This document shows, in pieces, positions 16,514 to 40,147 of a stretch of DNA of 64,000 nt. Made by a program: the position numbers and the translations under genes. The notes under the pieces are model-generated. The model saw only the letters and a program-made list of their open reading frames with translations. It was not told the DNA's origin and did not search any database. Numbering within the stretch: position 1 is the stretch's first letter; every line of letters starts with the position of its first letter. Origin of the DNA: an uncultured Gemmatimonadales bacterium (lineage in GTDB: Bacteria; Gemmatimonadota; Gemmatimonadetes; Gemmatimonadales; Gemmatimonadaceae); the NCBI GenBank assembly GCA_963850905.1, contig CAWKMU010000003.1, positions 1,728,001 to 1,792,000 on the forward strand, read 5' to 3'.

Positions 16514-17285
16514 TCCGCGACCGGCCGGCGCGGGCGGGGCGCCCCGGCGCGCTCTGCTCGTTTCCATTCATGACGTCGCTCCACCGCTCGAACGCCGCGT
16601 ACGCGAGCTCTGGGCGCTCTGCCAAGCTCGGGGGATCACCCCAGCGCTGCTCGTCGTACCCAACTGGCACGGGGATGCGCCGCTCGAGACGGCGCCCGCC
16701 TTCGTGCGCTGGGTAAGCGAGTGCGCCCACCGGGGCGCCGAGGTGTTTCTGCATGGCGAGCGCCATGACGAGTATGGACTCGCACGCGGGTGGCGCGATG
16801 CATGGCGCGCGTGGGGTCGCACGGCACGCGAAGGCGAGTTCCTGACGCTGGACGAACCCCGGGCCACCGAGCGGATCGAGCGCGGTCTCGGGTGTCTGCG
16901 CAGCCTCGGCCTCGAGCCGATCGGGTTCGTGCCGCCGGCGTGGCTCGCGCACCCGGCCTGCTGGCGCGCTGTGGGACGCGCCGGGCTGCGATTCAGCGAG
17001 GATGCGCAATCCGTGCGCATCCACGCGGGCGATCACCTGACGGAGATCCGGTCGCCGGTCGTGCGCTGGAGCAGTCGGACCGCGCTCCGCACACACGGAT
17101 CCGTGGCAGTGGCCGCGGCCCGTTGGCGAGCACAGCGTCGAGCCCCGTATGTGCGCATCGCGCTGCATCCCGGCGATCTCGCCGACCCGAGAACCGCGCG
17201 ATCTGTGGCGATCGCGCTCGACCACTGGCTGAGTGACAGGCCCGCGGCGCCATACGCCACCCTGCGCGCCGACGAGTGTGCGTGA
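16485..17285 (+). CDS. Polysaccharide deacetylase-like protein (DUF2334-type)
   Basis: VSIHDVAP, LHGERH, GFVPPAW, RIALHPGD motifs; start uncertain. Confidence 0.75.
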   Translation: MTSTAASSRSPRPAGAGGAPRRALLVSIHDVAPPLERRVRELWALCQARGITPALLVVPNWHGDAPLETAPAFVRWVSECAHRGAEVFLHGERHDEYGLARGWRDAWRAWGRTAREGEFLTLDEPRATERIERGLGCLRSLGLEPIGFVPPAWLAHPACWRAVGRAGLRFSEDAQSVRIHAGDHLTEIRSPVVRWSSRTALRTHGSVAVAAARWRAQRRAPYVRIALHPGDLADPRTARSVAIALDHWLSDRPAAPYATLRADECA

Positions 17286-18183
17286 TATCCGCCTGAGCAT
17301 CGTGGCCGCGCAGGCCATCTGCGCTGGATTGGTTGCAGTCGACCAACTGTCCAAGACCTGGCGGGTGCAAGCGCTTGCCCGCGGCCTTGGCTATCGGACG
17401 GCGTTCGCCCGAGTGTTCGCCTTCAATGTGACAAGCGACGCCTCGGCGTCGTTGACGCCACTCCGCGCCGGCGGCGAGCCCGTTCGGTTTGCGGGCATTC
17501 TCTACTGCGGGCTGTCCGTCCCGGACACGCTCGCGTTGATGGGCGTCGAAGGGATGCTGGAGTACACGACCGTCCTCGCGATCGCTGCCTACATCAGCTC
17601 GGCCTACCTGGGAGTGTGGTGGGCGATCACGCGCGCCCGTCTCGTGCCGGCCATGCACCGCGCGCTGCCGTGGATCGCGGCGACCGTCGTGGGCGGTCTC
17701 GCGCTGTTGGCACTCATGCACCGCATGGCGCCGGAGCGCTTCAGGAGTGTCGGCGGGACATTTCGGACAACCCTCCGCAGCGCCCGGCGGATCAAGCCGT
17801 GGACGATTGCCGTGTCGCTCCCGCTCACGGCGCTTCACGTCGTCGCACGCCTCGCGGTGCTCCCGGTGCTCGTGCTGGCGTTACCAGCCGTACCGCACTT
17901 GGGCGCGGTGTGGTTCGGGTCGTTTGCTCTGCTGTATGGGCAAATGTTCGTACCCACACCGGCCGGCGCCGGCGCGGTCGATGTCGGCTTCTTGAACGGC
18001 GCGTCGGGCTACGTCGGTGCGGATACCACGGAACTTCTCATCGTATGGCGGTTTTACACGACAGTGACCGGCATCATCCTAGGCCTGGTATTCGGCGTGC
18101 CCTACTATGGCGATGCGGTGCGACGCTGGCTCTTACGACGCCGAACGGAGCGGGACACATTGCAGCATGACCCACGGCGCTGA
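17278..18183 (+). CDS. UPF0104 / lysylphosphatidylglycerol-synthase TM-like flippase domain protein
   Basis: TPLRAGGEP, PTPAGAGAVD, LIVWRFYT; multiple TM segments. Confidence 0.8.
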   Translation: MRDIRLSIVAAQAICAGLVAVDQLSKTWRVQALARGLGYRTAFARVFAFNVTSDASASLTPLRAGGEPVRFAGILYCGLSVPDTLALMGVEGMLEYTTVLAIAAYISSAYLGVWWAITRARLVPAMHRALPWIAATVVGGLALLALMHRMAPERFRSVGGTFRTTLRSARRIKPWTIAVSLPLTALHVVARLAVLPVLVLALPAVPHLGAVWFGSFALLYGQMFVPTPAGAGAVDVGFLNGASGYVGADTTELLIVWRFYTTVTGIILGLVFGVPYYGDAVRRWLLRRRTERDTLQHDPRR

Positions 18184-18257
18184 GGTGTCGGTGACGAGCG
18201 GACGATTCGGGTTGCGCTGTGTGGCACCCGGTTGGATGCCCGGGAACCCATAGTCGC

Positions 18258-19520
18258 GTGACGAGCAGAGGCGCGGCATCGCTGATCACGCGCGACGTGA
18301 TCCCCGAAGGGATTGGCCACGGCGATGGAATCCGCCTGGCTGACGCCACTCCACTGCGGCTCGCGCTCTTCACAGATACGTATCCGCCGCAACTGAACGG
18401 CGTCTCTCGCACGCTCGAGCGGCTGGTGCGTGCGGTCAACGCGCGCGGTGGCACCGCACGGGTCTACACCACGACTGACCCGGGCATGCAGCCTGGCGAA
18501 CGGGACGATGGGCTCTGGCGTCGGCCGAGCATTCCGTTCTGGGCGTATCCGCAACTGAGAATCACGGCGCCGATTCTCGGCAGGGCGTACCGAGATCTGG
18601 GTCGCTGGCAGCCGACGCTGATCCACGCCGCCACGCCGTTCGGCATGGGCCTCGCCGGCCGGAGCTGTGCGCGCGCCCTTGGTGTGCCACTCGTGACCTC
18701 GTATCACACGAGCTTCAACGAGTACGCGAAGTTCTATCATCTCGGTGCGCTCAGCAAACCCGGCTGGGCCTTCATTCGATGGTTCCACAATGGCGGCGAG
18801 CGAACGTACGTGCCGACTCGCGCGGTGCTCGAGGAGTTGCGTTCGCTCGGCTTCGAGCGCTTGGCGCTCTGGGGCCGGGGAGTGGAACCGCATCGCTTCA
18901 ATCCAGACTTTCGGTCGCTGGCCTGGCGGGCTCGCCTCGGTGCGGACGACGACACCGTGGTCGTCGCGTATGTCGGACGGCTTGCGGCCGAGAAGGGTCT
19001 GGACACCGCGGTCGCCGCGATGCACCGAGTGTCGGCCGGCCCATTCGGCTCCGCCGTGCGGGGCGGGCGGCGCGTCGTGTTTGCCCTCGCTGGTGATGGC
19101 CCCTACGCCGCACATTGTCGGCGTGTCGCGCCGCCGCCTCCAACCACGCAATTCGTGGGGCGTCTCGAAGGGCGTGCGCTCAGCGAGTTCTACGCGTCGG
19201 CTGATCTCTTCGTGTTTCCGTCTGCCACCGACACCTTCGGCAACGTGCTCCTCGAAGCCATGGCGTCGGGTGTGCCGGTCATTGGCGCCGACGCCGGCCC
19301 CACGCGCGAGATCCTCGCGCACGGCGGTGGCATCACGGTGCCTCGCGGTGATCCAGAGGCGCTCGCCGCAGCCATCGAGACGCTCGCCGCCGATCCCGCA
19401 GGGCGCGTTGCGATCGGCGCTGCCGGCGTCGCATACGCCGCTTCACGCTCCTGGGATCGGATATTTGATGATTTGCTGGCCGATTATCGGCGCGTGATCG
19501 GATCGCGGGTGAGCAGCTGA
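18258..19520 (+). CDS. GT4 family glycosyltransferase (glycolipid synthase-like)
   Basis: FTDTYPPQLNGVS, SYHT, VGRLAAEKG, DTFGNVLLEAMASG; start uncertain. Confidence 0.9.
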   Translation: MTSRGAASLITRDVIPEGIGHGDGIRLADATPLRLALFTDTYPPQLNGVSRTLERLVRAVNARGGTARVYTTTDPGMQPGERDDGLWRRPSIPFWAYPQLRITAPILGRAYRDLGRWQPTLIHAATPFGMGLAGRSCARALGVPLVTSYHTSFNEYAKFYHLGALSKPGWAFIRWFHNGGERTYVPTRAVLEELRSLGFERLALWGRGVEPHRFNPDFRSLAWRARLGADDDTVVVAYVGRLAAEKGLDTAVAAMHRVSAGPFGSAVRGGRRVVFALAGDGPYAAHCRRVAPPPPTTQFVGRLEGRALSEFYASADLFVFPSATDTFGNVLLEAMASGVPVIGADAGPTREILAHGGGITVPRGDPEALAAAIETLAADPAGRVAIGAAGVAYAASRSWDRIFDDLLADYRRVIGSRVSS

Positions 19521-20978: not shown

Positions 20979-22946
20979 ATGGCTGACGGCGCGCCCCTCT
21001 CGCTCCCTGACCGGCTCGATTCAGTACCGCCCCGTCCGCTAGCGGGGACCGCGGTGCTGCCCCCGGGTCGCCGACTGCAACAGGCGATGCTGGATCCGCG
21101 CCGGATCATTCGTTGGGTCTACGTCGGGCGCTTCTCTGTAGCGACGGCCATCTTCCTCGCCGCGCAACTGGTGTGGGCCAGCGCGCCCTCCACCGACACC
21201 CGGATTGCGTCGCTCATCTTCGCGGTGACAATGGTCGTGACCGTCATCTCGGCAGCATACACCGAGGTGTACGGTGCGCCACCCCGTCGAACCTTTCTCT
21301 ACGGTCAGACCGTCTACGACCTCCTGCTCGTCACCGCGGTCGTGCACGTCACTGGCGGTGGTGCGTCGCAGTTCACGCTGTTCTACATCCTCGTCATTGC
21401 GACGGCCGCGCTCCTGCTGCCGATGGGCGGCGGGCTACTCATCGCGCTCCTGGGGATCGTGTGTTACTTCGCCGAGGTCTTGTGGTTGAGTGACACCGCT
21501 CCCGATCTCGGCGTGTGGTTGCAACTGCTGGTGTTCGCGATGGTTGCGCTCGCCTGTGGCTACATCAGCGCGCGACTGCAGGAAGCCGAGGAAGGGACCG
21601 CCGCTGAGTTGGTATTCGTTCGACTCCAGGCCGAAGACATTCTCCGGAACATTCGCAGCGGCATCGTCACGATCGACGAAAACGGGGTGCTCCTGTACGC
21701 CAATCCGGCCGCGAGCGCTCTGCTCGGCATCCCCTTCTCCGATCTCATCGGGACGCCGATCCTGAATCGGGTGTTTGAAGTCGCACCCATCGTCGCCCGT
21801 GCGCTCCAGCGGGCCGTCACGGACCGACTACGCACGACACGGGCAGAGGACGTCGTGCAGTTCGGCGACCACGCGTTCCCGATCGGCGTCACGACCACGT
21901 TCGCTGATGGCGACACCGGCGGCCACGGTCGTACGGCTACCGCCATCTTCCAGGACATCGCAGGCCAGAAGCGCCTGGAGAGTCTGCATCTCCGGGCGGG
22001 CCGCCTGGAAGCGATCGCGGAGCTCGGCGCCTCGCTCGCCCACGAGATCAAGAACCCCCTCGCGTCGATTCGCAGCGCCGTCGAGCAACTCACGCGCATG
22101 ATCGAGCCGACCACCGGTCCGCTCGCGGGGCGCGGCCGCGAGACGGGTGACGCGCCGGCCCGTGGCCGGTCGGCGGGCCTGAACCGCACACGCGGGATGG
22201 GTGTCGGGAGACACCAGTCATCGCTGTCGCGCCGACGTCGGGTGAGCGCTTCCGTCGCGGCGCGCGATCCAAAGGAGGAGGCGGCCGCATCGACGGGCGC
22301 CGACGACGACACGCGCACGCTTGGAGCGCTGATTGTACGCGAAACGGACCGGCTGTCGCGTCTGCTCAGCGAGTTCCTCGACTTCGCGCGTGTGCGCGTC
22401 ACCCGGACGTCACCGGTCAACGTGTCGGCGCTGGCCCGCGGCGCGGCGAGCCTGGTCGCGGCCCATCCCAATGTCAAACAGGGCCTGCGGGTGAACTGTG
22501 TCACACCGGAGGGCCCAGTCGTCATCGACGGCGATGAGGACCTTCTTCACCGAGCAGTTTTCAATCTCGCGCTCAATGCGGTGCAGGCCGCGCCGCAGGG
22601 CGGAGAAGTGTGCATCGAAGTGCAGACCTTGACAGTGGATCAGGTACCGATGGGCGTCAACGACGCGGCGTTCGAGGCGGGCGCGATCGCTCTTCGCGTG
22701 TCCGATGACGGGCCGGGCATTCCCCTGGAGATTCGTGATCGGCTGTTCGAGCCATTTGCCACCACGAAGCCGGGCGGGACCGGTCTGGGGTTGTCGGTCG
22801 TCTATCGCGCCATCGAAGCGCATCGCGGGTTGGTGCTGGTCGACTCCGGTGGCGACTTCACGGGGACGCGCATCACTGTCCTGATCCCGCTCCGCCGGCC
22901 AGACGACACGACCGCGACGGCAGGCAGCGCGGAGGCCGCCGCATGA
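20979..22946 (+). CDS. pilS: PilS-like membrane sensor histidine kinase (TM, PAS, HisKA, HATPase)
   Basis: H-box LAHEIKNPL, NAVQA, DDGPG, GTGLGL; coupled to an NtrC-type regulator in a pilus locus. Confidence 0.8.
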   Translation: MADGAPLSLPDRLDSVPPRPLAGTAVLPPGRRLQQAMLDPRRIIRWVYVGRFSVATAIFLAAQLVWASAPSTDTRIASLIFAVTMVVTVISAAYTEVYGAPPRRTFLYGQTVYDLLLVTAVVHVTGGGASQFTLFYILVIATAALLLPMGGGLLIALLGIVCYFAEVLWLSDTAPDLGVWLQLLVFAMVALACGYISARLQEAEEGTAAELVFVRLQAEDILRNIRSGIVTIDENGVLLYANPAASALLGIPFSDLIGTPILNRVFEVAPIVARALQRAVTDRLRTTRAEDVVQFGDHAFPIGVTTTFADGDTGGHGRTATAIFQDIAGQKRLESLHLRAGRLEAIAELGASLAHEIKNPLASIRSAVEQLTRMIEPTTGPLAGRGRETGDAPARGRSAGLNRTRGMGVGRHQSSLSRRRRVSASVAARDPKEEAAASTGADDDTRTLGALIVRETDRLSRLLSEFLDFARVRVTRTSPVNVSALARGAASLVAAHPNVKQGLRVNCVTPEGPVVIDGDEDLLHRAVFNLALNAVQAAPQGGEVCIEVQTLTVDQVPMGVNDAAFEAGAIALRVSDDGPGIPLEIRDRLFEPFATTKPGGTGLGLSVVYRAIEAHRGLVLVDSGGDFTGTRITVLIPLRRPDDTTATAGSAEAAA

Positions 22947-24316
22947 GCGCCAACGGCCAGCCGACCGTGCTTGTCATCGACGACGAGATGGGCATTCTCG
23001 AGTCGCTCCGGATCCTCCTCAAGAACGAGGGATTCAGTCCCACGATCGCCAACGGTGGGAAGCAGGGGCTCGAGCAGATCGAAGAGCTTCGGCCGGATAT
23101 CATCTTGAGTGATGTCCGGATGCCTTCGGTGAGCGGCGTGCAGGTCCTGAGCGCCGCGCGAGCGCAAGATCCCGACGTGCCGGTCATCCTCATGACGGCG
23201 CAAGCGACCCTGCAGTCGGCAATGCAGGCGGTCAACGAAGGGGCGTTCTACTACATCCAAAAGCCGTTCCGCAACGATGAGATGCTCGCCATTCTCCGAC
23301 GGGCAGCCGAGCATCGAAAACTGCGTGTCGAGAACCGGTCCCTGCGACAGGAGATCACTCGACGGGAACGGACATCGTCCAATCGGCCTGTCGGGAGCAG
23401 CAAGTCCTGGCTCGACATCGTCCAGCTCGCGGAGACGGTTGCGCCGACCGAGTCCACCATCCTGATCCAGGGCGAGTCGGGCACCGGGAAAGAGGTCATT
23501 GCGAGGTACATCCACCAGTTGTCGCTGCGCACGGATGGTCCGTTTCTCTCCATCAACTGCGGCGCGCTCCCTGAGAGCCTGCTCGAGTCCGAGCTCTTCG
23601 GCCACGTGAAGGGCTCGTTCACCGGCGCGGTCAGGGACAAGAGCGGATTGTTCACCGCGGCGGCGGGCGGCACGTTCTTCCTGGACGAAATCGGCGAGAC
23701 CACACCGGCGACCCAGGTGAAGCTGCTGCGCGTCCTCCAACACCGTGAGGTCATTCCGGTCGGGGCGACAGAAGCCATCCCGATCGACACGCGCCTCGTC
23801 GCGGCGACGAATCGTGATCTCGAGGAAGAGATCAAACGGGGCGCGTTCCGCAGCGACCTGTTCTATCGACTCAACGTCATCGCGCTGCACCTGCCGCCGC
23901 TGCGCGAGCGACGCGATGACATCCCGCTGCTCGTCGATTTGTTCCTGCACCGGGCGTCGGAAGCTCGGGGCGAGCCGGCGAAGCAGGTCAGCACAGCGGC
24001 GCTCGATGTGCTACAGGGCTTCAACTGGCCAGGCAACGTGCGAGAGCTCGAGAATGCCCTCGAGCGCGCGGTGATTCTGACCGCTGGCCCGATCATCGAT
24101 GTCAACGTGCTACCGGAACGGATCACGGAGCGGCGCGCCGAGCCACTCGTCTCGGAGCGCATGCGGACGAATCCGACGCTCGAGGCAATCGAGCGGGCGT
24201 ACATTCTGTGGGTTCTCCAGAGCGAGGGCGGGAACAAGACCCGGGCGGCCGACGTGCTGGGTATCGACCCATCGACGCTGTATCGGAAACTGTCGCGGTT
24301 TGGGGTCGAGGCGTGA
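22943..24316 (+). CDS. pilR: Sigma-54-dependent response regulator PilR (NtrC family)
   Basis: Receiver domain, GESGTGKE, ELFGHVKGSFTGA, WPGNVRELEN, Fis-type HTH. Confidence 0.85.
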   Translation: MSANGQPTVLVIDDEMGILESLRILLKNEGFSPTIANGGKQGLEQIEELRPDIILSDVRMPSVSGVQVLSAARAQDPDVPVILMTAQATLQSAMQAVNEGAFYYIQKPFRNDEMLAILRRAAEHRKLRVENRSLRQEITRRERTSSNRPVGSSKSWLDIVQLAETVAPTESTILIQGESGTGKEVIARYIHQLSLRTDGPFLSINCGALPESLLESELFGHVKGSFTGAVRDKSGLFTAAAGGTFFLDEIGETTPATQVKLLRVLQHREVIPVGATEAIPIDTRLVAATNRDLEEEIKRGAFRSDLFYRLNVIALHLPPLRERRDDIPLLVDLFLHRASEARGEPAKQVSTAALDVLQGFNWPGNVRELENALERAVILTAGPIIDVNVLPERITERRAEPLVSERMRTNPTLEAIERAYILWVLQSEGGNKTRAADVLGIDPSTLYRKLSRFGVEA

Positions 24317-25953
24317 CACGTCGGGCGACGCCTACGTCGCCCCTACACGCCGTTCCCCGATCGCGGCTCGGCGTGCCGCGGTCATGGGCGGCCGCTGCGC
24401 TCGTCGGCGCCGTGACACTGGCAGTCGCACTGTCGACCGTCAGCCCCTATCTGGTCGGCGCATTTCAGGATGATGCGATCTACGTGATTCTGGGCCGCGC
24501 ACTCGCGACCGGCGCGGGCTACCGCTATGTGCACCTGCCCGGCGCGCCGCCGGCCGTGCACTACCCTCCCGGCTATCCCGTGTTCTTATCCCTGCTGTGG
24601 CGGGTCGCGCCCAACTTTCCCGACAACGTCGTGACCTTCGAGCGCGCCGATGCGGTGCTGCTCGCGGTGGCGGCGGTCCTGGGGTTCGAGTTGGCCAAGC
24701 GCCGCGCCGGGCTCTCGACCATGTGGAGTGCCGTCGTCGCACTCGCTGGCACGATCAGCATCCTCCCGCTCGCGTTCGCATCGATGGTGCTGTCCGAATC
24801 GCTCTTCCTGGTCGTGTTGCTCGCTGCCCTCCTGGCCGCAGAGGCGATCGCCGCCCGTCCAGCAGAAGATGCGGTTCCGTCTCCCTCCTCCTCTCTCGTC
24901 TCTCCTCTCTACGCACGCGCAGCGGCCGTCGGGTTGCTCTGCGGATCCGTCGCGCTCGTCCGCAGTATCGGCATCATGATCGTGCCAGCCGCTCTCGCCG
25001 TGTGTGCATGGCGCGGTCGATGGAAATCGGCCGCGGCGCTCGCCCTTGGTGCGGCGGTGGTGCTCGTCCCGTGGCAGGTGTGGGTGTGGTCACACACGCG
25101 TGAGCTCGCGCCGATGCTCCAGGGTGAATACGGGCCGTACGCGACGTGGGTGACGGCGGCTCTGCACCGCCGCGGCCTCGGCTTTGCAATGCGCACGGTC
25201 ACGGGTAATTCGCTGGACGCCGCACAGACACTGGGCGCCATAGTCGCGACACGCTTGCCCAACCCGATTCGGTGGGCAGCGGTCGTGACGTGGTTGGCAT
25301 TGCTGGCTGCTGGGATGGGATGGCTGGTCCGGCGGACGACCGTAACAGTGATCTTTTGCCTACTGTACGTCGGGGCCGTTTTGCTGTGGCCGTTTCCTCC
25401 TCACCGGTTCATCTCAGCCATCTGGCTCCTTATCATGATGGCACTGGTAGCAGGTGTCGTGGCGGTCGCGCAGTGGCGGCCGGAGCTCCCGCTCAGCCGC
25501 TGTATGCGCACGGTCGCCCTGGCGCTCGTCGTCTTGCTCGGTGTGGGCACCCTGAGATACAACATCATTGGATACCGACACGGTTGGTGGGGACTGATGC
25601 GGGAGAGTCTGACGACACGCGTGGCACGACCGCTCGACTGGCTGGTGGCGCATCCGGCCCTCCCGGGGCCGACGATGAGCTCGGTCGAACCGTCTCTGTA
25701 CCTCTATGCTCACCGGTCAGGCCTGCCGTGTAGCCCGTTCACCGCCGACGATTACGTGTACCCGCGGGACACCGCGCAAGACCGCGCCACGCTGGCTGCC
25801 GCGTTGCGCCGCCACCGCGTGGGATCCATCATCGCGACCGATCCCGTGTGCGCCCTCGCGGCGTCTCGCTTGGCGGCCGAGCCGGCGCCGTTGCTCACGG
25901 CGGTCGACACATCTGCCGCCGGCCTGGCCGTTTTCGTTCGTACATCACAATGA
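24313..25953 (+). CDS. Polytopic GT-C-type (ArnT/PMT-like) membrane glycosyltransferase
   Basis: TM1 followed by acidic FQDDAIY, YPPGYP, VLSE; many TM helices; GTGA overlap with pilR. Confidence 0.65.
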   Translation: MTRRATPTSPLHAVPRSRLGVPRSWAAAALVGAVTLAVALSTVSPYLVGAFQDDAIYVILGRALATGAGYRYVHLPGAPPAVHYPPGYPVFLSLLWRVAPNFPDNVVTFERADAVLLAVAAVLGFELAKRRAGLSTMWSAVVALAGTISILPLAFASMVLSESLFLVVLLAALLAAEAIAARPAEDAVPSPSSSLVSPLYARAAAVGLLCGSVALVRSIGIMIVPAALAVCAWRGRWKSAAALALGAAVVLVPWQVWVWSHTRELAPMLQGEYGPYATWVTAALHRRGLGFAMRTVTGNSLDAAQTLGAIVATRLPNPIRWAAVVTWLALLAAGMGWLVRRTTVTVIFCLLYVGAVLLWPFPPHRFISAIWLLIMMALVAGVVAVAQWRPELPLSRCMRTVALALVVLLGVGTLRYNIIGYRHGWWGLMRESLTTRVARPLDWLVAHPALPGPTMSSVEPSLYLYAHRSGLPCSPFTADDYVYPRDTAQDRATLAAALRRHRVGSIIATDPVCALAASRLAAEPAPLLTAVDTSAAGLAVFVRTSQ

Positions 25954-26771
25954 CCGACATACGCCAACCATCGACACCGACCGCCGGCGAGCCGACGATA
26001 GACGTCCGCGCGCCACTGGCGCACCGTGACTCCGGGGGCCGCATGCCGCGGCTTCGCGGGCGCACTCCACTCGCTCGTGACGAGCTCCGATTGTCCGTGC
26101 TCATCCCGGTGTACAATGAGCGCCAAACCATCGGGCTGATTCTCGATCAGGTCCACGCGGTGCCGGTGGCCAAGGAAGTGATTTGCGTCAACGATCACTC
26201 GACCGACGGGACAGCGGAGATCCTGGATCGTCTTGCCGCGGCCGGCAAGATCGACCGCCTCATCCATCACCCGGCAAACCGGGGGAAGGGAGCGGCCATC
26301 CGAACCGCACTCGCGGCCAGTACCGGCAATGTCGTTATCGTGCAGGACGCGGACCTGGAGTACGACCCCGCAGACTGGCCCGCTTTGCTCGAGCCGATCA
26401 TCGAAGGCCAAGCTGATGCGGTGTTTGGCTCCCGATTCCTCGGCGGTCCGCATCGCGTGCTGTACTTCTGGCACTCGATCGGGAATGGGGTGCTCACGAT
26501 GTTCAGCAACATGTTTACGAACCTGAACCTGACCGACATGGAGACGTGTTACAAAGCGGTTCGCGGCGAAATTGCGCGCGGACTGGCTCTCACGTCGGAT
26601 CGCTTCGGGTTCGAACCGGAGATCACGGCCCGGTTGGCCCGATCCGGCGCCCGCATCTTCGAGGTGCCCATCAGCTATTCGGGTCGCACCTACGCCGAGG
26701 GCAAGAAGATCGGTTGGCGGGACGGCCTCGCGGCCGTCTGGCACATCGTGAAGTTCAACGTGTTCGACTGA
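25950..26771 (+). CDS. GT2 polyprenol-phosphate glycosyltransferase (DPM1-like)
   Basis: IPVYNE, NDHSTDGT, NRGKGAA, QDADLEYDP, GSRF, DMETCYK, FGFEPEIT. Confidence 0.9.
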   Translation: MTDIRQPSTPTAGEPTIDVRAPLAHRDSGGRMPRLRGRTPLARDELRLSVLIPVYNERQTIGLILDQVHAVPVAKEVICVNDHSTDGTAEILDRLAAAGKIDRLIHHPANRGKGAAIRTALAASTGNVVIVQDADLEYDPADWPALLEPIIEGQADAVFGSRFLGGPHRVLYFWHSIGNGVLTMFSNMFTNLNLTDMETCYKAVRGEIARGLALTSDRFGFEPEITARLARSGARIFEVPISYSGRTYAEGKKIGWRDGLAAVWHIVKFNVFD

Positions 26772-26851
26772 CGGGTGGCGTGACCTGCGTTGGGTGGCGC
26801 AGGGCGCCACCCAACGTGTTTCGCGGGCCTCGCGACACGCGTCCCGATCGT

Positions 26852-28582
26852 GTGATCGCGAACGACCAGCCGACTGGCGGTAGGGAGGATCGCGGGGGCA
26901 CTATACCCTCTGCGGACCGGTGCGCCGCGGCGTGGCACCTCCGAGGGGCGGGGTCGATTGTCATACTTGCGGCCATCGCTGCCGCAGGCGTCTTCGCCAA
27001 CGCCTATACCGGCGATGATCACTGGATCATCGAGCACAACGCGCGGCTACATGATCTCTCGCACGCTTGGCGGCTCTTGGGCCAGTCCTACTGGCCACCA
27101 GAGAATGGTGTCGGCGACTATCGCCCGGTCACGATGCTCGGCTTCGCGCTCGAGTGGGCGATTGGTCACGGCGCGCCGTGGGCGGTGCATGCGGGTGGCC
27201 TCGTGCTCTACGTGTGTGTCGCGCTCGCGTTCTGGCGGTTGGCCACGCGCGTCCTCGATCGACATGTCGCATGGGCGGCGGCCGCGCTCTTCGCTGTGCA
27301 TCCCGTCCACGCCGATGTAACGGCGAACGGGGTCGGGCAGGCGGAGCTGTGGACCGCGTTGTGGGTGATCGTAGGCGTGACCTGGTATCTCGACTGGCGT
27401 CGCGGGCCGGCGCCAACCACGTGGTCGGCGCGTCGACTCGGCGCGTTGGCCGGCGTCTACCTCTTGCCTGCGCATCGAAGGAGCACGGCGTGGTATTCCC
27501 GCTCCTGCTCGCGGCGGCCGAAGTCACCATCATTTCGCGAAACCAGGACCGCGCGTCCCCGGCCCTGACGTGGGTGCACTTGCTCCGACCGGCCGCCACT
27601 CTCGGGCTGACGGGCGCGGGTTATATCGTCATGCGGTGGATCGTGACCGGATCGTTGCGCGGGGATTCACCCACGTTCGTCCTGGCGCACGCGCCGTTCG
27701 CAATGCGGCTGTGCACGATGCTGGGAGCCCTGCCGACGATTCTCTCGCTCCTCGTCTGGCCAGCGCACCAGGCGGTCGAGTACATGCCACAGGCCCTCGC
27801 CGTACATCACAGCTTCGATATCGCACTCCTCTGGCCCGCAGCGCTCCTCGCATCACTGATCAGCGCTGCGGTCGCTGCCCGCCGAAGCGCGCCCGTCGTG
27901 ACGTTTGGTATCATGTGGACCGCGCTCACTCGACTGCCTGCAAGCAACATCCTCATGCCGACGGGGATCGTGCTCGCGCCTCGAGTGCTGTTCCTCCCGA
28001 GCGTGGGAGCCGTTCTCGCTGCGGGAGGCGTCATCGCATGGCTTGCCGGTCGGTTGACCCGCGTTCGCTGGGGCGTACCGCTGTGGCGAGCGGTTACGGC
28101 TACCGGTCTCCCGCTACTCCTGGTCCTGGGTGTCTGGGCGAGCGAATCGCGCGTTCGCGTGTGGCGGGATGACCTGACACTCGTGTCGCGAACAGCGGTC
28201 GACGCGCCGCGAAGCTACCTGGCACGTTACCAATGGGGGCGGGCCCTGTTTCAGCTGGGGCGTTCAGCCGAGGGCGAGCGGGAGATGCGCGCGGCGATCG
28301 CTTTGTTTCCCGGCGATCCACGCCCCTACATCGACCTGGCATTCTGCGTACAGTCGAGCAAGGATATGCGCTCCGGCGATGGTCCTGTATCGGCAAGCGC
28401 TCGCAGTTTTGGCTTCGCGGCCCGATGCACACGCCGGACTCGCAGAGTGTCTCGCCCGCACCGGTGACTCCGGCGGTGCAAGATCGCAGGCCCGAATCGC
28501 GCTAGCGTATGGTGTCGATCGTGCAGCGATGCGCGCGATCGTCGCGGCGGCCGATAGCTCGGATCGAGCGACAACGCGGTAG
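26852..28582 (+). CDS. TMTC-like GT-C membrane protein with C-terminal TPR (copy 1; frameshifts near 27465 and 28342)
   Basis: YTGDD, YRP, FAVHPVHAD, SKE, LAPRVLFLPS, W..D..L, TPR-like helices; start uncertain. Confidence 0.75.
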
Positions 28583-28630
28583 GCGCCCCGCGCCGTGCCG
28601 CGGCGGCGCGCTCACGCGTCCGGTACTGGG

Positions 28631-30467
28631 ATGAGCTCTGATATGGAGGGGCAGCACCGGCCCACCGCGACGCGCAAGGCCGGGCTGCTGACACGGCGCG
28701 TCGATGTCCGTGCCGGCGCCACAATCGCGCTGCTCGCGACGATGTCGGCGGCGACCAGCGTGGCCAATGGGTTTGCGTACGACGACCGGCTGCTGATCCT
28801 CAACAATCCACGAGTCCATCATCTGGCGCGCATCGCGCGGCTGTGGGCTCAGACGTACTGGCCGCCGTGGATGGGAGCCGGATTGTACCGTCCGTTGACG
28901 ATGTCGGCGTTCGTCATGGAGTGGTCGATCGGTCGCGGCGCGCCGTGGGTGTTTCACGCCACGAACCTGGCGCTGTACATCGCGGTATGTGCCCTGGTCT
29001 ACAGTTTGGCGAAGCTCGTGCTGCCACCCGCCGGAGCATGGGTCGCGGCCGCGCTCTTCGCCGTCCACCCGGTCCACGTCGAAGCCGTGGGGAATGTCGT
29101 CGGGCAGTCGGAGTTGTGGGCGGCGTGCGGCGTCCTCGCCGCTGTCGTCGCGTTCGTCCGGTGGCGTCGGTCCGCGATGGCCCGCTGGCCTTCGGCGACG
29201 CACGTGGGGCCGGCAGGTATTGCGGAGCCTGAATCACATGGGCGAAGGGTGGCAACGGACCTGAGCCACCAGCTCGGCGCCGAGAATCTGGGCGGAGTGC
29301 GCCACCAGATCGTCCTCGTCGCCCTCGTCCTCGGCGCGTGTCTCGCCAAAGAACATGCGGTGGTCACGCCGGCCTTGCTGGTGCTCGCAGAAGTCCTGCT
29401 GGTCGAGGACCCGCGCCCGTGGCGCGAACGGTGGCGTGCGCTCAGGCCGTTCGCGCTATTGCTCGGCTTCGCCGTGCTGGCGTATGTCGTCGCCCGTGCG
29501 CATGTCATCGGGAATTGGGCGGGCGATCGTCCGAACGTCGTGCTCGAACATTCTGTCTCCAGCGGCACGTCGCTGGACAATGCTCGGTCTCGTGAGCGAC
29601 TGGATACGGCTGTTGGTCTGGCCCGCGCGCCTGGTCGTCGAATACGCGCCCCGCGACGTCGCGATCCACGAGCACTTCGACCTCTCGTTACTGCCCAACG
29701 CCGTATTGCTCGCCGTCGTCCTCGCGCTCGCCGCCATCTCGGTGCGGCGACGCACGCTGGCCGGTTTCGCACTGCTCTGGATCGCGGTGACCCTGTTGCT
29801 CGTCAGCAATCTCATCGTGCCGACAGGGATTCTGCTCGCGGAACGTACGCTGTTCCTGCCGAGCGTAGGCGCGGCACTTCTGGCGGGCGACGTCTTCACC
29901 AGGCTCGCCGCCCGTTTTGGTACGGCACCGGTTTCGGGCTCGGCGCGTGCGTACCGGCGCCATCTCGCTCTCGCGGCCGCCATCGCCGTGCTGCTCGTGG
30001 TGGGTGCGTGGCGCAGCGCCCGGCGGCAGCTCGTGTGGCGAAGCAACGCCGCGCTCTTTGCCCAAGCTCCACTGGACGCGCCCCTGAGCTACCGGGCACA
30101 CGACGTCTACGCTGGTTTGCTGTTCGATCGCGGTGACAATATCGGCGGCGAGCGCGAGGCCAGAATCGCCCTGGCGTTGTATCCACACGATCCGGTCCTG
30201 TATCGAGACCTCGCGCAAGAGTACATGCACGCGGGCTTGTGCCAGCCGGCTATCCCGCTGCTCCGGCGATCCATCGAGGAACCCGCGTCAGTGGAGACGG
30301 ACGCGCACCTCCTGTTGGCGGAGTGTCTGTTGGCGGTGCACGATCCCGCGTCTGCGCGGCTCGAGGTGCTTCGAGGCGTGGCACAGGGGCGCTACGTGTA
30401 CTATGGCGCCGGTTACCACAAGCTGTTGATGGCCATCGACAGCGCGACCCGGAGCGCGCCACGGTGA
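28631..30467 (+). CDS. TMTC-like GT-C membrane protein with C-terminal TPR (copy 2; frameshift near 29551)
   Basis: NGFAYDD, YRPL, FAVHPVHVEAV, AKE, LAERTLFLPS, TPR-like tail. Confidence 0.8.
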
Positions 30468-32350
30468 GACGACTGCGACGATCCATGGCCATCGCGGCGC
30501 GCGCATGGCAGTCGCTGGGGCACGCGCGCGTTGGGATCCTCGTTGCAATCGTGGCGGGGCTGGGTTCGATCAACGCCATCGGCAACGACTTCACGCTCGA
30601 CGATGAAGGCGTGATCGTCAAGAACGCGCTCGTTCACCACCTCTCGGGCGTCTGGCGCAGCTTCGGTCTGCCCTACTGGCCCGAGTCGACGAACGCCGGC
30701 CAGTACCGGCCGCTCGCGCTAGCGAGTTTCGCCGTCGATTGGGTCATCTCCGGCGGTTCGGCGCACTGGATGCACCTCATGAACGTGGCGTGGCACGTCG
30801 TCGTCTGCGTCCTCGTCTGGCGTCTGCTGCGGGATTTTCTCTCGCCGGAAGGTGCGCTGGCGGGTGCCTTGTATTTCGCCCTGCAGCCCGTGCACGTCGA
30901 AGCGATCGCCAACACCGTCGGCCGGTGCGACATCATGGCCGCGGCATTCGTCGTGGCAGGCGTGCTGGCACATCGGCGCGGACACTGGGTCGCCATCCCG
31001 CTGTACGCTGCCGCGCTGGCGTCCAAGGAGATCGGCGTCGTCATGCTCGGCCTGGTCGTGGCGAATGATGTGCTGCTCGGCGGGGTCGGTCGTGCATCGG
31101 CCATCAAGACGCCCGTGGGCGATGCACCCGCGGGAGAGATCCCGTTGCAGGGGGCGGCGCTCTGGCGCGCGCGCCGGCCGCTGTACGCCGGGTACGGCGC
31201 GGTCGCGATCGTCTACGCCGCGGCTCTTGCGGCGGTCTTTCATCACCGGCCTCTCGTCGAAACGGCCCCCATATGGGAGCATGCCTCCATCATCGACCGC
31301 TGGCTGACTGAAGCGCGGGTCGTTCCCGAATACGTGCGCCTGATGGTCGCACCGTTCGAACTGAGGATCGAGTACTCGCCGCGCGCCATCGACCTGGCGC
31401 GTTCAGTGAGCCCTCTCGTGGCGCTCGGCTTGTTGCTGGTAGCCCTGGGCGCCTTGTGCGCGATCTATGCTTGGCGGCGGGCTCCGGCGGTCGCGATGGG
31501 GCTCGCCTGGTTCGTCATCGCAATATCACCCGTTTCGAACCTGTTCTTCGCCTCCGGAGTCGTCCTCGCGGAGCGTACGTTGTACCTGCCGAGCGTAGGC
31601 GCAGCGATCCTGGTCGGCTGGCTCGCGAATGCATTCGCGAGCAGATTGGCGGTCGCGGCGAGCCCGGTGCGGCGACGCCGTCTGTGGGGGTGGCGGCCCG
31701 GGCGTCTGGCGCGCGCCTGGGGGGTCGTCGGGACCCTCGGCGGCCTGGGGTTGCTGGCGTTCGCGGTTCGATCGTGGACGCGGACCACGGTGTGGCACGA
31801 TGACAAGCGCCTGCTCCTCACGTCGCTGGAGTTGGAGGCCGACTCGTATCGCACGCACGCGCGCGCGGCGATCATCCTGGACCATCGACACGATTGGGCA
31901 GGGGCGGAACGCGAGCTCGCCGTCGCTCGCACACTCTATCCCGAAGACGCGAATGTCTACGAGGCGGCGGCGATGGTGGCTGACGGGCAGAACCAATTCG
32001 CGCTCGCCGATCGCCTGTACGACAGCGCCACCCTGATCCATCCTGGTCTCTTCGCCGTCTACATCAAGCAAGCGCGCCTCCGATATCGCGATGGCAACTA
32101 CGGCGGGGCTATCCGGTCGGCACGCTCCGCCTACCTCGCGGCGCACGACTCGCTCGAAGCGCTCAACATCCTGACCGGCGCAGCGCAGCGAATCGGCGAC
32201 TTCACGAGTGCGGAATGGGCGTTCCAGCACGGGCTGGCGGACCATCCGCGCGATAGCACGCTCCATCGCCAGTACTCCTGGATGCTCGCCGCGCGGGGCG
32301 ACACGGCGGCGAGTCGCCGCGAAGCGGAGCGGGCCGCGGGTTTGAGGTGA
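30464..32350 (+). CDS. TMTC-like GT-C membrane protein with C-terminal TPRs (copy 3, intact)
   Basis: NDFTLDD, YRPL, FALQPVHVEAI, SKE, LAERTLYLPS, several TPR-like repeats. Confidence 0.82.
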   Translation: MRRLRRSMAIAARAWQSLGHARVGILVAIVAGLGSINAIGNDFTLDDEGVIVKNALVHHLSGVWRSFGLPYWPESTNAGQYRPLALASFAVDWVISGGSAHWMHLMNVAWHVVVCVLVWRLLRDFLSPEGALAGALYFALQPVHVEAIANTVGRCDIMAAAFVVAGVLAHRRGHWVAIPLYAAALASKEIGVVMLGLVVANDVLLGGVGRASAIKTPVGDAPAGEIPLQGAALWRARRPLYAGYGAVAIVYAAALAAVFHHRPLVETAPIWEHASIIDRWLTEARVVPEYVRLMVAPFELRIEYSPRAIDLARSVSPLVALGLLLVALGALCAIYAWRRAPAVAMGLAWFVIAISPVSNLFFASGVVLAERTLYLPSVGAAILVGWLANAFASRLAVAASPVRRRRLWGWRPGRLARAWGVVGTLGGLGLLAFAVRSWTRTTVWHDDKRLLLTSLELEADSYRTHARAAIILDHRHDWAGAERELAVARTLYPEDANVYEAAAMVADGQNQFALADRLYDSATLIHPGLFAVYIKQARLRYRDGNYGGAIRSARSAYLAAHDSLEALNILTGAAQRIGDFTSAEWAFQHGLADHPRDSTLHRQYSWMLAARGDTAASRREAERAAGLR

Positions 32351-32494
32351 CAAGACGCAGCCTCCCCGACCTCGAAAGCAGTCTCAAGACGCTGTTTTGT
32401 CAGGCCTGGTGGCTACAGGATCGACAGGCAGCTTGCAAGCGGCCGTGCATTATGCCCCAGCCAGGGGTGTTCGAACGGGCCCCTGTTAAGACGC

Positions 32495-32519
32495 TAAGTC
32501 GATTAGGGATAACGGCTTA
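32495..32519. promoter_or_regulatory. Imperfect palindrome TAAGTCG-N11-CGGCTTA, IHF-like site upstream of pilA promoter
   Basis: AT-rich inverted motif partly matching the IHF consensus AANNNNTTR. Confidence 0.3.
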
Positions 32520-32536
32520 ATCTCGGGATCCAAAGC

Positions 32537-32551
32537 GGGCCCGACGGTTGC
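32537..32551 (+). promoter_or_regulatory. Putative sigma-54 (-24/-12) promoter of pilA
   Basis: GGGCCCGACGGTTGC vs consensus TGGCACG-N4-TTGC; GG-N10-GC spacing exact; ~74 nt before pilA ATG; PilR encoded upstream. Confidence 0.55.
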
Positions 32552-32624
32552 CCCTAAGGGGGACATGTCGACCTAGACCGCCGGCGACCTCTGGTTGCCG
32601 ACCAATCTCACTCTGGAGCAAGCA

Positions 32625-33014
32625 ATGACGCAGAACCGGAAGGGCTTTACGCTGATCGAGTTGTTGATCGTGGTCGTCATCATCGGCATTTTGGCGGCGA
32701 TCGCGATTCCGAAGTTCGCCAACACGAAGCAACAGGCCTACCTGGCGACCCTCAAGTCGGACCTGCGCAACTTGGTCACGGCCGAGGAGGCGTACTTCGC
32801 GGACAACACCACCTACACGACGTCGTTGGCGACCACGCAGTTCGACGCGTCGCAGGGTGTGACGTACAACGTGTCGAACGCGAGCGGGACAGGCTGGGAA
32901 GCGACCGCGACGCACGTCGGGTTGGTCGGTGCCACGCCGTCGGGGTGCCACATTGCAATCGGCACGTACGCGACGACTGCAAGCGAGGACGAAGGCGCGC
33001 CGTACTGCCCGTAA
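32625..33014 (+). CDS. pilA: Type IVa major pilin
   Basis: Leader MTQNRKG|FTLIELLIVVVIIGILAAIAIP; C-terminal Cys pair; GGAG RBS. Confidence 0.93.
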   Translation: MTQNRKGFTLIELLIVVVIIGILAAIAIPKFANTKQQAYLATLKSDLRNLVTAEEAYFADNTTYTTSLATTQFDASQGVTYNVSNASGTGWEATATHVGLVGATPSGCHIAIGTYATTASEDEGAPYCP

Positions 33015-33040: not shown

Positions 33041-33076
33041 CGAGGGCCAGCCGCGGGCGACCGCGGCTGGCCCTCG
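33041..33076 (+). terminator. 16-bp stem hairpin with GCGA tetraloop after pilA (member of GGGCCAGY family)
   Basis: CGAGGGCCAGCCGCGG-GCGA-CCGCGGCTGGCCCTCG; no clear U-tract. Confidence 0.6.
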
Positions 33077-33095
33077 GTGCGTCAAGGACTTTACG

Positions 33096-33213
33096 GCGGG
33101 GTCAGTCGTCAGGGGTCAGGGGTCAGGGAACAAACGTGCATGTCTGGTCGGGCGCACGAGACCTAACCCAGAAGTGACTTGCCCGACCCCTGATCCCCGA
33201 TCCCTGACCCCGC
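33096..33213. repeat. Inverted heptamer arms (GGGGTCA)n ... (TGACCCC-like)n flanking ~48 nt
   Basis: Read directly between pilA and pilM. Confidence 0.8.
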
Positions 33214-33363
33214 TCTTCATACGGTTGGGCTCGTTACCTTGGCCCCCGGCGAGTCGTGTGTGCTGTGAATGACCGGTCGGAGTGGCAGTAATGACCGGTG
33301 CGCGGGTCGCTAATGCACTCGCGTTGTGTGCCCACGACTCACTGGCGACACGCCCAACCACAC

Positions 33364-38880: not shown

Positions 38881-40147
38881 TTGCTCTCCTTCACCACCGC
38901 AGGCGAATCACACGGCCCCGCGCTCGTCAGCATCCTCGAAGGGATGCCCGCCGGCGTGCCGCTCCTGGCCGCCGACGTCGACGCCGAACTGGCGCGACGG
39001 CAGCAGGGCTACGGCCGCGGCCGGCGCATGCAGATCGAGCACGATACCGTGGAGTTCCTCGCCGGCGTCCGCGCCGGCGAGACGCTCGGGTCCCCGATCG
39101 CGATGTACATTCGAAACCGCGACTGGGCGAACTGGCAACACATCATGGATCCCGCGCCGCGCTCGGAAGACCAGGTGCTCGCCGAGGACACCTCGCAGGC
39201 GGACGGCCCACGCCCGGTGCAGACGGTCGGCGCGGCTCGTGCTCGGCGGGCGCCGCGCGCGCGCGCGGTGACTCGGCCGAGGCCGGGCCATGCCGATCTC
39301 GCAGGAGTACTCAAGTACGATCGCGACGACGCACGTGATATCCTCGAGCGGGCGTCCGCACGAGAGACGACGGCGCGCGTCGCGGCCGGCGCTGTGTGCC
39401 GGCGGCTGCTGCGCGAGTTCGACATCACGGTTGGCAGCCATCTCGGTGCACCTCGGTGGCATCGACGCGATGCGCCCCGATGTGCTGCCAGCGGACATCA
39501 ACGCGGCGGCGGACGCATCGCCGCTGCGCACGTTGGACCGTGAAGCCGAGCAGCGGATGATCGAGCGCATCGATGCGGTGAAGCGCGAGGGCAACACGCT
39601 CGGCGGCATCTGCGAAGTAGTGTGTGAAGGACTGCCCGTGGGATTGGGATCACATGTCGCGTGGCATCGGAAGCTGGACGGCAGGCTCGGGGCCGCGTTA
39701 CTCTCGATACCGGCCGTGAAAGGCGTGGAGATGGGGATCGGTTTCGAAGCGGCGCGCCGGACGGGAGCCGAGGTGCATGACGAAATCGAGCTCGCGCGCG
39801 ACCGTCCTAAGAGTGGCTTCGTCAGACGGCGCACCAACCGTGCAGGAGGACTCGAAGGCGGCATGACCACTGGCGAGCCGCTCGTGCTTCGTGTAGCCAT
39901 GAAGCCGATCAGTACGCTCATGCGGCCCCTGGGCACCATCGATACAGCGACCCGCGCGTCGGCGACTGCCGTCGCCGAACGCAGTGACGTCACCGCGGTG
40001 CCTGCGATGGGCGTGATCGCGGAGGCGATGGTCGCGTTCGTGATGGCGCAGGCGTTTCTCGAGAAGTTCGGGGGCGACTCCCTGGGTGAGTTACGACGGA
40101 ACTACGAGGGATACCTGGCCCAGGTGGCCGGGCGCATGGCCGACTAG
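38881..40147 (+). CDS. aroC: Chorismate synthase (frameshifted near 39444)
   Basis: [39 protein letters not shown]. Confidence 0.95.

What the first reader, a model, noticed from the sequence alone, without database searches (positions are those of the whole stretch)
24313..33014. Candidate lipid-linked pilin glycosylation system: GT-C + polyprenol-P GT2 + three tandem TMTC-like/TPR proteins between pilR and pilA
Seen: five co-directional genes, several translationally coupled (GTGA/ATGA overlaps), fill the gap between pilSR and the major pilin. Three are paralogs sharing the TM1-adjacent acidic DD, YRP, FAxHPVHxE, KE and ERxLY/FLPS motifs plus TPR tails. Residues 53-122 of the mature pilin contain 20 Ser/Thr in 70 aa and three N-x-S/T sequons (NTT, NVS, NAS). 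Known: this architecture matches TMTC-type GT-C proteins (eukaryotic TMTC1-4 O-mannosylate cadherin beta-strands using Dol-P-Man), and DPM1-like GT2s make polyprenol-P-sugar donors. Inference: this is a bacterial, PglL/TfpO-independent route that adds single sugars from a polyprenol-P donor to pilin, with the paralogs dividing up sites or substrates.
Basis: partly seen in the sequence, partly recalled or inferred. Interest (0 to 1): 0.82.

Follow-up and report, generated by a model that had tools for sequence, protein, structure and literature searches.

The report
TfpW-like pilin sugar-coating gene cassette
Just upstream of the main pilus-subunit gene of this soil bacterium sit genes for an enzyme predicted to load a sugar onto a membrane lipid and for membrane enzymes built like the Pseudomonas pilin glycosylase TfpW and the animal TMTC proteins, which likely attach that sugar to serines and threonines of the pilus protein, an untested variant of a known design.

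Summary
The cassette is real: pilR, a TPR-less GT-C-like gene, a DPM-synthase-like GT2, three GT-C/TPR paralogs (A, B, C), then pilA, in a Gemmatimonadota genome. Two are likely assembly errors; one in paralog A is unresolved, and A has changed two near-invariant glutamates. Paralog C has a predicted GT-C fold, and the family is homologous to eukaryotic TMTC. Linkage is conserved: a TMTC-like gene lies within 1.1 kb of pilA in 54 of 57 loci, 9 of them inverted. Pilin heads are richer in Ser+Thr with the gene (median 0.30, n=45) than without (0.22, n=26; phylogenetic p 0.001-0.05); N-sequons do not differ. The route is not new in kind: P. aeruginosa TfpW (GT-C, DDX, TPR, beside pilA, lipid-linked arabinose) already does this, and paralog C carries its YX6PFX7P motif. 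Homology to TfpW itself could not be tested. Sugar and glycosylation are unshown. The scan found this before in at least 18 genomes. New variant of a known kind.

The parts
20979..22946 (+). pilS-like sensor kinase (context)
   Evidence: ORF; conserved upstream of pilR in relatives
22943..24316 (+). pilR-like sigma-54 activator (context; cassette starts in its stop codon)
   Evidence: ORF; orthologs in 94 of 131 phylum genomes at E<=1e-165
24313..25953 (+). g1: 546-aa polytopic GT-C-like protein without TPR; conserved D53-D54 after the first membrane helix; likely elongating, branching or second transferase
   Evidence: No Pfam or NCBIfam hit; Atlas neighbours include PMT_2/GT39 clusters; two homologs in L122 hit PMT_2 below cut-off; D53 98%, D54 95% in 62 aligned homologs, 10 hydrophobic segments; fold not predicted
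25950..26771 (+). DPM1/AglJ-like GT2, predicted polyprenol-phosphate sugar synthase, no membrane segment
   Evidence: Pfam Glycos_transf_2 E 6.5e-32; best NCBIfam AglJ E 1.3e-33, under cut-off; only PDB match at E<=1e-10 is dolichol-P-mannose synthase 5mlz, E 8.4e-16; no TM
26780..28582 (+). TMTC/TfpW-like paralog A (start uncertain), degenerate; frameshifts at ~27463 (unresolved) and 28342 (likely assembly error)
   Evidence: Three-frame translation; contigs; two near-invariant Glu changed; absent from closest relative G004, sister of the first copy in G003
28631..30467 (+). TMTC/TfpW-like paralog B (alternative GTG start 28595); frameshift at 29551 likely an assembly error
   Evidence: ortholog in G004 is one open frame, 91% identical; all core motifs intact
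30464..32350 (+). TMTC/TfpW-like paralog C, intact (621 aa from ATG 30485): GT-C membrane domain ~1-450 with D39-D40, Y74-R-P, H137-x-E139, K181-E182, Y283-X6-P-F-X7-P299, E363-R364; TPR tail ~451-621
   Evidence: AlphaFold2 model pLDDT 93; VIA matches AglB, Pmt2, ArnT, ALG12, STT3, Pmt4, PglB at Z 16-19; motifs
32537..32551 (+). sigma-54-like -24/-12 site upstream of pilA (predicted PilR-activated promoter)
   Evidence: 9 of 11 consensus positions; 56 of 71 pilA upstream regions score >=9 against 3.9% of base-shuffled controls
32625..33014 (+). pilA, type IVa major pilin (mature from 32646, 122 aa), likely acceptor; head 29% Ser+Thr
   Evidence: N_methyl motif, PilA model; composition
33042..33075 (+). 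15-bp perfect hairpin after pilA, possible terminator or RNA-stabilising stem
   Evidence: Seen in the sequence; not listed by the terminator scan, which needs a T tail

Best explanation
This is likely a TfpW-type pilin O-glycosylation cassette: the GT2 is predicted to load a monosaccharide from a nucleotide sugar onto polyprenol phosphate, and the GT-C/TPR proteins B and C would transfer it, on the periplasmic side, to Ser/Thr residues in the head of PilA. Shown: gene order, fold prediction, motif conservation, linkage, and the Ser/Thr covariation. Inferred: donor synthesis, flipping of the donor (no flippase found), acceptor recognition by the TPR tail, and catalysis by the DD motif. g1 likely extends or decorates the first sugar, or is a second transferase. 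Paralog A is likely a decaying or inactive extra copy. The sugar is not determined; a hexose or amino sugar is more likely than arabinofuranose. The probable benefit, by analogy with Pseudomonas, is masking the pilus from phages or stabilising it.
For: GT-C fold with protein-glycosylating GT-C enzymes among the matches: 3waj Z 19.2 (rmsd 4.9, 325 aligned), 6p2r_B Z 18.4 (4.4, 344), 5f15 Z 18.1 (4.6, 331). Catalytic-type residues near-invariant in 216 aligned domains. Profile aligns with a dinoflagellate protein named TMTC4 over 335 columns, probability 99.95%; 20 of 103 members hit DUF1736 at E<=0.01. TMTC-like domain within 1.1 kb of pilA in 54 of 57 loci with both, divergent in 9; 52 of 72 loci of a separate, partly overlapping scan. 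Close GT2 ortholog in 37 of 45 TMTC-bearing and 2 of 26 TMTC-free intervals. Pilin head Ser+Thr 0.30 vs 0.216, Mann-Whitney p 2e-6; PGLS p 0.002 (PilR tree, ML lambda), 0.046 (lambda 1), 0.0014 (pilin tree); 11 of 13 non-tied edge-disjoint pairs, p 0.022; no difference in PilR or pilin residues 1-52. TfpW has the same described architecture, position and YX6PFX7P motif.
Against: No glycan has been observed. No TfpW sequence was on hand, so homology to TfpW is not tested. The exact YX6PFX7P motif is in only 4 of 213 domains plus paralog C; only the P-X8-P spacing is general. The binary pair test on starred branches was not significant (6 pairs, median p 0.5); Thr alone is not significant under PGLS (p 0.15), and Ala and Tyr differ as strongly as Ser+Thr. 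Distributions overlap: TMTC-free G125 and G160 have 0.31, TMTC-bearing G203 and G149 0.15-0.16. G000 has three more TMTC-like genes away from any pilin, and the family has about 123,000 clusters, so many members serve other acceptors. No GtrA flippase found in G000 (82% complete). Two Wzy_C proteins elsewhere leave a PglL/TfpO-like route open. The pilR-pilA gap also takes up unrelated genes.
Confidence: 0.72

Rival explanations
1. The enzymes are general periplasmic protein O-glycosyltransferases (many acceptors, or other pilus parts such as minor pilins or PilY1), and PilA is only one target or none.
For: Unlinked paralogs in G000 beside bipA/pilT-like and permease genes; very large family; eukaryotic TMTCs serve many cadherin domains and some other proteins (PMC11292533, passages).
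Against: The TMTC-like gene is within 1.1 kb of pilA in 54 of 57 loci, also after inversion; 50 of 58 TMTC-positive genomes with a fetched pilR stretch have a copy there; pilin-head Ser/Thr tracks it.
Confidence: 0.14
2. The interval is a variable cell-envelope island (lipid A, glycolipid or polysaccharide decoration in the manner of ArnC/ArnT or GtrB/Gtr) that uses the pilR-pilA gap as an insertion site; the TPR tails serve pilus assembly or nothing pilin-related.
For: ArnT is among the tied fold matches; related intervals hold extra GT-C, GT2, DegT aminotransferase, epimerase, methyltransferase, UbiA and flippase-like genes, and also unrelated inserts. This may well be true of g1.
Against: Homology to TMTC protein O-mannosyltransferases with a TPR tail; fixed adjacency of the TPR-bearing gene, not of the other island genes, to pilA; Ser/Thr covariation.
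Confidence: 0.1
3. The enzymes N-glycosylate the pilin at its N-x-S/T sequons, like AglB/PglB.
For: Three sequons in this pilin; AglB, STT3 and PglB are among the fold matches.
Against: Sequon number (1.38 vs 1.15, p 0.34) and Asn content do not differ with the cassette, and 9 of 45 TMTC-linked pilins have no sequon; the C-terminal domain is TPR, not the oligosaccharyltransferase soluble domain.
Confidence: 0.04

Closest known systems
TfpW of Pseudomonas aeruginosa group IV strains (Pa5196, PA7), pilin D-arabinofuranosyltransferase (bioRxiv 10.1101/2020.04.19.049825; abstract, introduction and first part of results read)
   Same: About 620-650 aa, GT-C membrane domain with DD in the first outer loop, proline motif before a C-terminal TPR domain (exact YX6PFX7P in paralog C), gene adjacent to pilA, lipid-linked monosaccharide donor, Ser/Thr-rich pilin, independent of TfpO/PglL.
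   Different: Upstream of pilA and coupled to pilSR rather than downstream and co-transcribed; one to three paralogs; a DPM-like GT2 as predicted donor synthase and no DprE1-type domain found in G000; an extra TPR-less GT-C; no TfpX-like gene recognised (not searched); sequence homology untested.
Eukaryotic TMTC1-4 (CAZy GT105), cadherin O-mannosyltransferases (PMC7801869 and PMC11292533, passages)
   Same: Homologous membrane domain; DD, YRP, HPxH-E, KE and ERxxY motifs; TPR tail; several paralogs per genome; DPM-synthase-like donor enzyme.
   Different: The HKS residues before YRP, modelled as mannose contacts in TMTC, are not conserved here (consensus G-L-Y-R-P); KET(Q)xxT is KE-x-A/G; DW is D/E-Y; shorter TPR tail; donor sugar unknown; acceptor a pilin, not a cadherin domain.
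TfpO/PilO and PglL O-oligosaccharyltransferases (as described)
   Same: Pilin O-glycosylation from a lipid-linked donor; tfpO lies beside pilA.
   Different: They move whole Und-PP-linked glycans; no Wzy_C match in the cassette proteins scanned; no TPR/TMTC motifs.
ArnC/ArnT and GtrB/Gtr three-component systems (own knowledge; ArnT fold match)
   Same: GT2 polyprenol-P-sugar synthase paired with a GT-C transferase.
   Different: Acceptors are lipid A or polysaccharide; no TPR; they include a flippase, not found here.

Membership tests
GT-C superfamily (paralog C) | GT-C membrane fold | tested here: met
   Model pLDDT 93, pTM 0.91; Z 16-19 over 320-345 residues to AglB, Pmt2, ArnT, ALG12, STT3, Pmt4, PglB
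GT-C superfamily (paralogs A-C, g1) | Acidic motif after first membrane helix | tested here: met
   DD 100%/98% in 216 domains, present in A, B, C; D53/D54 98%/95% in 62 g1 homologs
GT-C superfamily (g1) | GT-C membrane fold | tested here: inconclusive
   No fold predicted (both jobs spent on C); Atlas feature neighbours and sub-cut-off PMT_2 hits in homologs only
TMTC / GT105 | Homologous membrane domain with DUF1736 loop | tested here: met
   hhalign 99.95%, 335 columns, 30% identity to P0121; DUF1736 at E<=0.01 in 20 of 103 members, best 1e-5; paralog C itself only E 0.094
TMTC / GT105 | C-terminal TPR domain | tested here: met
   Pfam TPR hits in A, B, C, mostly under cut-off; TPR fold matches over 451-621
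TMTC / GT105 | SHKSYRP and KET(Q)xxT motifs in full | tested here: not met
   Only YRP and KE cores are kept against the motifs given in PMC7801869
TMTC / GT105 | Transfers mannose from polyprenol-P-Man to Ser/Thr | not testable with these tools
   Needs assay; GT2 is closest to DPM synthase among PDB chains; a partial GMP_PMI match exists in G000, under cut-off
TfpW | Sequence homology to TfpW | not testable with these tools
   No TfpW sequence or model reached: no NCBIfam model matched, no plasmid hit, nothing in one supplement
TfpW | YX6PFX7P motif before the TPR domain | tested here: inconclusive
   Exact in paralog C, not in A or B, 4 of 213 relatives; both prolines conserved at 100% and 97%
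TfpW | 11 membrane helices plus TPR, DDX in loop 1 | tested here: inconclusive
   DD and TPR met; model helices are compatible with 11 spans by my reading, a hydropathy scan found 6
TfpW | Gene adjacent to pilA | tested here: met
   54 of 57 loci; upstream rather than downstream
TfpW | D-Araf donor pathway (DprE1/DprE2, DPPR synthase, GtrA) | tested here: inconclusive
   No ALO (DprE1-type) or GtrA match in G000, but the genome is 82% complete; DprE2 and DPPR synthase not searched
Polyprenol-phosphate sugar synthase (DPM1/AglJ/GtrB-like GT2) | GT2 domain closest to lipid-phosphate glycosyltransferases | tested here: met
   all specific NCBIfam models under their cut-offs, so no sugar assignment
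PglL/TfpO | Wzy_C domain | tested here: not met
   No Wzy_C hit at E<=0.1 in the cassette pieces scanned; two such genes lie elsewhere in G000

The most novel reading that the evidence does not exclude
TfpW, these proteins and eukaryotic TMTC1-4 are one family of TPR-guided GT-C enzymes that put single sugars on beta-strand Ser/Thr; in Gemmatimonadota two anciently diverged paralogs (B and C types) split the sites on the pilin and use a polyprenol-P-hexose, possibly mannose, making this a bacterial counterpart and simple test system for cadherin O-mannosylation, with pilin Ser/Thr content evolving with gain and loss of the cassette.
Probability: 0.3. Interest if true: 0.72.

Novelty: new variant of a known kind. 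Interest (0 to 1): 0.47.

Why it matters
If right, pilin glycosylation of the TfpW type is not a Pseudomonas oddity but common in a major soil phylum (TMTC-like gene in 69 of 131 sampled genomes), with a different donor sugar and paralog arrays. It gives a candidate acceptor for part of a very large, uncharacterised bacterial family (about 123,000 clusters) that automatic annotation already calls 'protein O-mannosyl-transferase' or 'PilF'. It also offers a small bacterial system to study TMTC-type catalysis; no PDB chain matched the membrane-domain profile by sequence. The presence/absence comparison of pilin Ser/Thr is the part I did not find in print or in the scan's notes.

Tried and rejected
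Single-sequence fold of paralog C: pLDDT 46.5, discarded. Foldseek and the full-length profile against PDB returned only TPR proteins in the rows shown; the membrane-domain profile matched no PDB sequence below E 0.35; no TMTC chain was listed among the 50 VIA rows. Complex prediction of paralog C with PilA: no verdict, score 0.00, no controls folded; not used as evidence. No RNA holder listed. Search for close relatives of paralog A in metagenome contigs found none, so whether its lesions are shared is open. TfpW sequence not reached. DUF1736 search of 61 Myxococcota genomes: 12 matched, 6 over cut-off; the loci were too short to test pilin linkage and I did not analyse them. First Ser/Thr filter (64 of 106 loci; 0.298 vs 0.199) dropped valid TMTC-free pilins and kept one frameshifted pilin, so I replaced it with looser stated criteria (71 of 106; dropped: 13 cut by contig end, 13 with no pilin in the stretch, 6 minor-type including two at 54% identity, 3 frameshifted tails); the gap shrank slightly. 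The ~1040-aa genes between pilR and pilA in TMTC-free genomes were tested as possible replacement transferases; they hit spermidine synthase, not GT-C. N-glycosylation rejected as main reading. Sigma-70 promoter scan: none. Literature searches for a TfpW-TMTC link or a Gemmatimonadota pilin glycan gave nothing relevant; the library lacks most subscription papers, and bioRxiv supplements were closed, so the TfpW preprint's alignments were not seen.


Full report
Observation. The window lies in a 4.49-Mb, 82% complete assembly; record titles of loci with related genes are Gemmatimonadota, apart from one Myxococcota and one unclassified record among 72. Between pilR (22943-24316) and pilA (32625-33014) lie g1 (24313-25953), a GT2 (25950-26771) and three paralogs A (about 26780-28582), B (28631-30467) and C (30464-32350). 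Stop/start overlaps join pilR-g1, g1-GT2 and B-C. The pilin counts are exact: 20 Ser/Thr in residues 53-122 and three sequons. Short-read contigs lack one base at 28342 and at 29551, two runs each, and B's ortholog in the closest relative is one open frame, so these are likely assembly errors; 6 of 35 genes tested in this assembly change frame, a rough figure that includes B and one tandem-paralog case. The break near 27463 is unresolved. A also has Asp for a 99% conserved Glu and Pro for a 98% conserved Glu, both covered by matching contigs, and is missing from the closest relative. I read A as a degenerate extra copy. The runs belong to one or two studies and may include the source sample.

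What the proteins are. An AlphaFold2 model of C from 123 sequences has pLDDT 93. Its membrane part matches AglB (Z 19.2, rmsd 4.9, 325 aligned), Pmt2 (18.4, 4.4, 344), ArnT (18.1, 4.6, 331), ALG12, STT3, Pmt4 and PglB, and its tail matches TPR proteins; these Z values are close, so the fold shows GT-C but not the acceptor. In 213 related membrane domains plus the three window copies, DD, RP, H-x-E, KE, P-X8-P and ER are 97-100% conserved. The profile aligns with a dinoflagellate protein named TMTC4 over 335 columns at 99.95% and 20 of 103 members hit Pfam DUF1736 at E<=0.01. PMC7801869 (passages) lists these motifs for human TMTCs and notes prokaryotic homologues; the HKS residues it models as mannose contacts are not kept here, so mannose is not implied. 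The family has 123,057 representatives at 50% identity. The GT2 is closest to dolichol-P-mannose synthase among solved chains and to AglJ among NCBIfam models, under cut-off. g1 has no family hit but conserved DD after its first helix and GT-C-like neighbours; its fold was not predicted.

Linkage. A TMTC-like gene was found in 69 of 131 phylum genomes. Of the 68 besides G000, 58 had a fetched pilR stretch and 50 of these carry a copy there; of the 8 others, 5 end at a contig edge before any pilin. Where both a TMTC-like gene and a PilA-type pilin are in the stretch, they are within 1.1 kb in 54 of 57 loci, and in 9 the transferase is inverted yet still next to pilA. The separate scan gave 52 of 72, with no PilA in 16 loci, many of them short; it overlaps the first set in part. 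Copy number in 77 complete intervals was 0 in 21, 1 in 21, 2 in 30, 3 in 5. A close GT2 ortholog accompanies 37 of 45 TMTC-bearing and 2 of 26 TMTC-free intervals, g1 32 of 45 and 1 of 26; 7 of 10 TMTC intervals without the close ortholog hold another GT2. B- and C-type copies fall on opposite sides of the midpoint root of a fast tree, A beside B. pilA has a sigma-54-like site about 110 bp upstream of the mature start in 56 of 71 loci against 3.9% of shuffles, so it is probably transcribed on its own. Against a strict pilin role: the gap also holds unrelated inserts and other envelope enzymes in some genomes, and G000 has three more paralogs away from pilins.

Natural experiment. Of 106 pilR loci, 71 had a complete PilA-type pilin (35 dropped: 13 cut, 13 none in the stretch, 6 minor-type, 3 frameshifted). 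Ser+Thr in residues 53 to the end has median 0.30 with a TMTC-like gene (n=45, range 0.15-0.38) and 0.216 without (n=26, 0.10-0.31), p 2e-6. The state changes at least 14 times on a PilR tree. PGLS gives +0.039 (p 0.002; p 0.046 at lambda 1) and 11 of 13 non-tied independent pairs agree (p 0.022); on a pilin tree +0.046, p 0.0014; PilR and pilin residues 1-52 show no difference. Weak points: a binary pair test on starred branches was not significant, Thr alone is not significant under PGLS, Ala and Tyr shift as strongly, the filter was revised once, and the trees are quick single-gene trees. Asn and sequons do not differ, and 9 of 45 linked pilins have none, which favours O- over N-linkage.

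Mechanism. Most likely the GT2 makes polyprenol-P-sugar at the cytoplasmic face (inferred from family), an unidentified flippase or the transferase itself moves it (inferred; no GtrA found), and B and C transfer it to Ser/Thr of the pilin head using the DD loop, with the TPR tail holding the acceptor (inferred from TfpW and TMTC). g1 likely extends or decorates the glycan; G024, with GT2 and two g1 copies, no TMTC-like gene and 0.31 Ser+Thr, hints that g1 may reach the pilin too. Pilin glycans block pilus-specific phages in P. aeruginosa (10.1101/150227, abstract), a plausible benefit here. No glycan is shown. Confidence 0.72.

Comparison. TfpW (10.1101/2020.04.19.049825; abstract, introduction, first part of results) is a 646-aa GT-C with 11 predicted helices, DDX, YX6PFX7P and a TPR tail, encoded beside pilA, that O-links lipid-derived arabinofuranose to several Ser/Thr. 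The window cassette works like it by every feature I could compare, and C has the exact proline motif, though only 4 of 213 relatives do. Membership by sequence could not be tested. Differences are position, paralog number, the GT2 donor gene, g1 and no DprE1-type match. PMC11841053 (passages) confirms TfpO and TfpW as unrelated pilin transferases; Kus 2008 and Harvey 2011 I saw only as references. PMC11292533 (passages) gives the TMTC substrate facts. Searches for a printed TfpW-TMTC link or for Gemmatimonadota pilin glycosylation found nothing relevant. I reached the TfpW reading before opening the scan's notes (note); they list 18 findings with these words in at least 18 genomes, two of the eight shown in this phylum, with the same reading; they are not independent support.

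Verdict. Real and conserved, probably pilin O-glycosylation, a new variant of the TfpW kind with a TMTC connection. Interest 0.47. G016 is an unpublished genome and enters only the tallies, on which no conclusion rests.

Noticed in passing
G000 C3:3054562-3054948 and C4:252460-252846 (L228, L229): Two more unlinked copies of pilA, 99% and 81% identical in protein; several same-genus genomes have the same set.
   Followed up: partly
G000 C3:77.8-81.2 kb and C3:917.5-919.4 kb (L226, L227): Three further TMTC-like genes with no pilin motif in 20 kb: a pair between bipA/typA and a PilT-like ATPase, and a single copy beside an amino-acid permease.
   Followed up: partly
L123:6367-9489, L125:9907-13014, L173:3331-6534, L212:7037-10186: A ~1040-aa protein with a spermidine-synthase domain sits between pilR and pilA in several relatives, with or without the cassette; its role there is unexplained.
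   Followed up: partly
L122 (G024):8809-13563: GT2 plus two g1-type GT-C genes before pilA, no TMTC-like gene found in the genome, yet a Ser/Thr-rich pilin (0.31).
   Followed up: partly
L202, L205, L207, L221 intervals: Expanded islands between pilR and pilA with DegT aminotransferase, epimerase, methyltransferases, UbiA, HAD phosphatase, GT4 and flippase-like genes, suggesting varied donor sugars.
   Followed up: partly
pilin heads, 71 loci: Tyr is higher (0.043 vs 0.026) and Ala lower (0.13 vs 0.17) in pilins linked to the cassette; not explained by Ser/Thr glycosylation alone.
   Followed up: no
window 38881-40147: aroC is split by a frameshift, as are other genes of this assembly; likely sequencing error, not checked with reads.
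   Followed up: no
window 17233-19520: A lysylphosphatidylglycerol-synthase-type membrane protein and a GT4 glycosyltransferase lie upstream of pilS; the GT4 is kept in same-genus loci.
   Followed up: no
window 33085-33215: Short repeated GGGGTCA / TGACCCC words between pilA and pilM, forming an imperfect inverted repeat.
   Followed up: no
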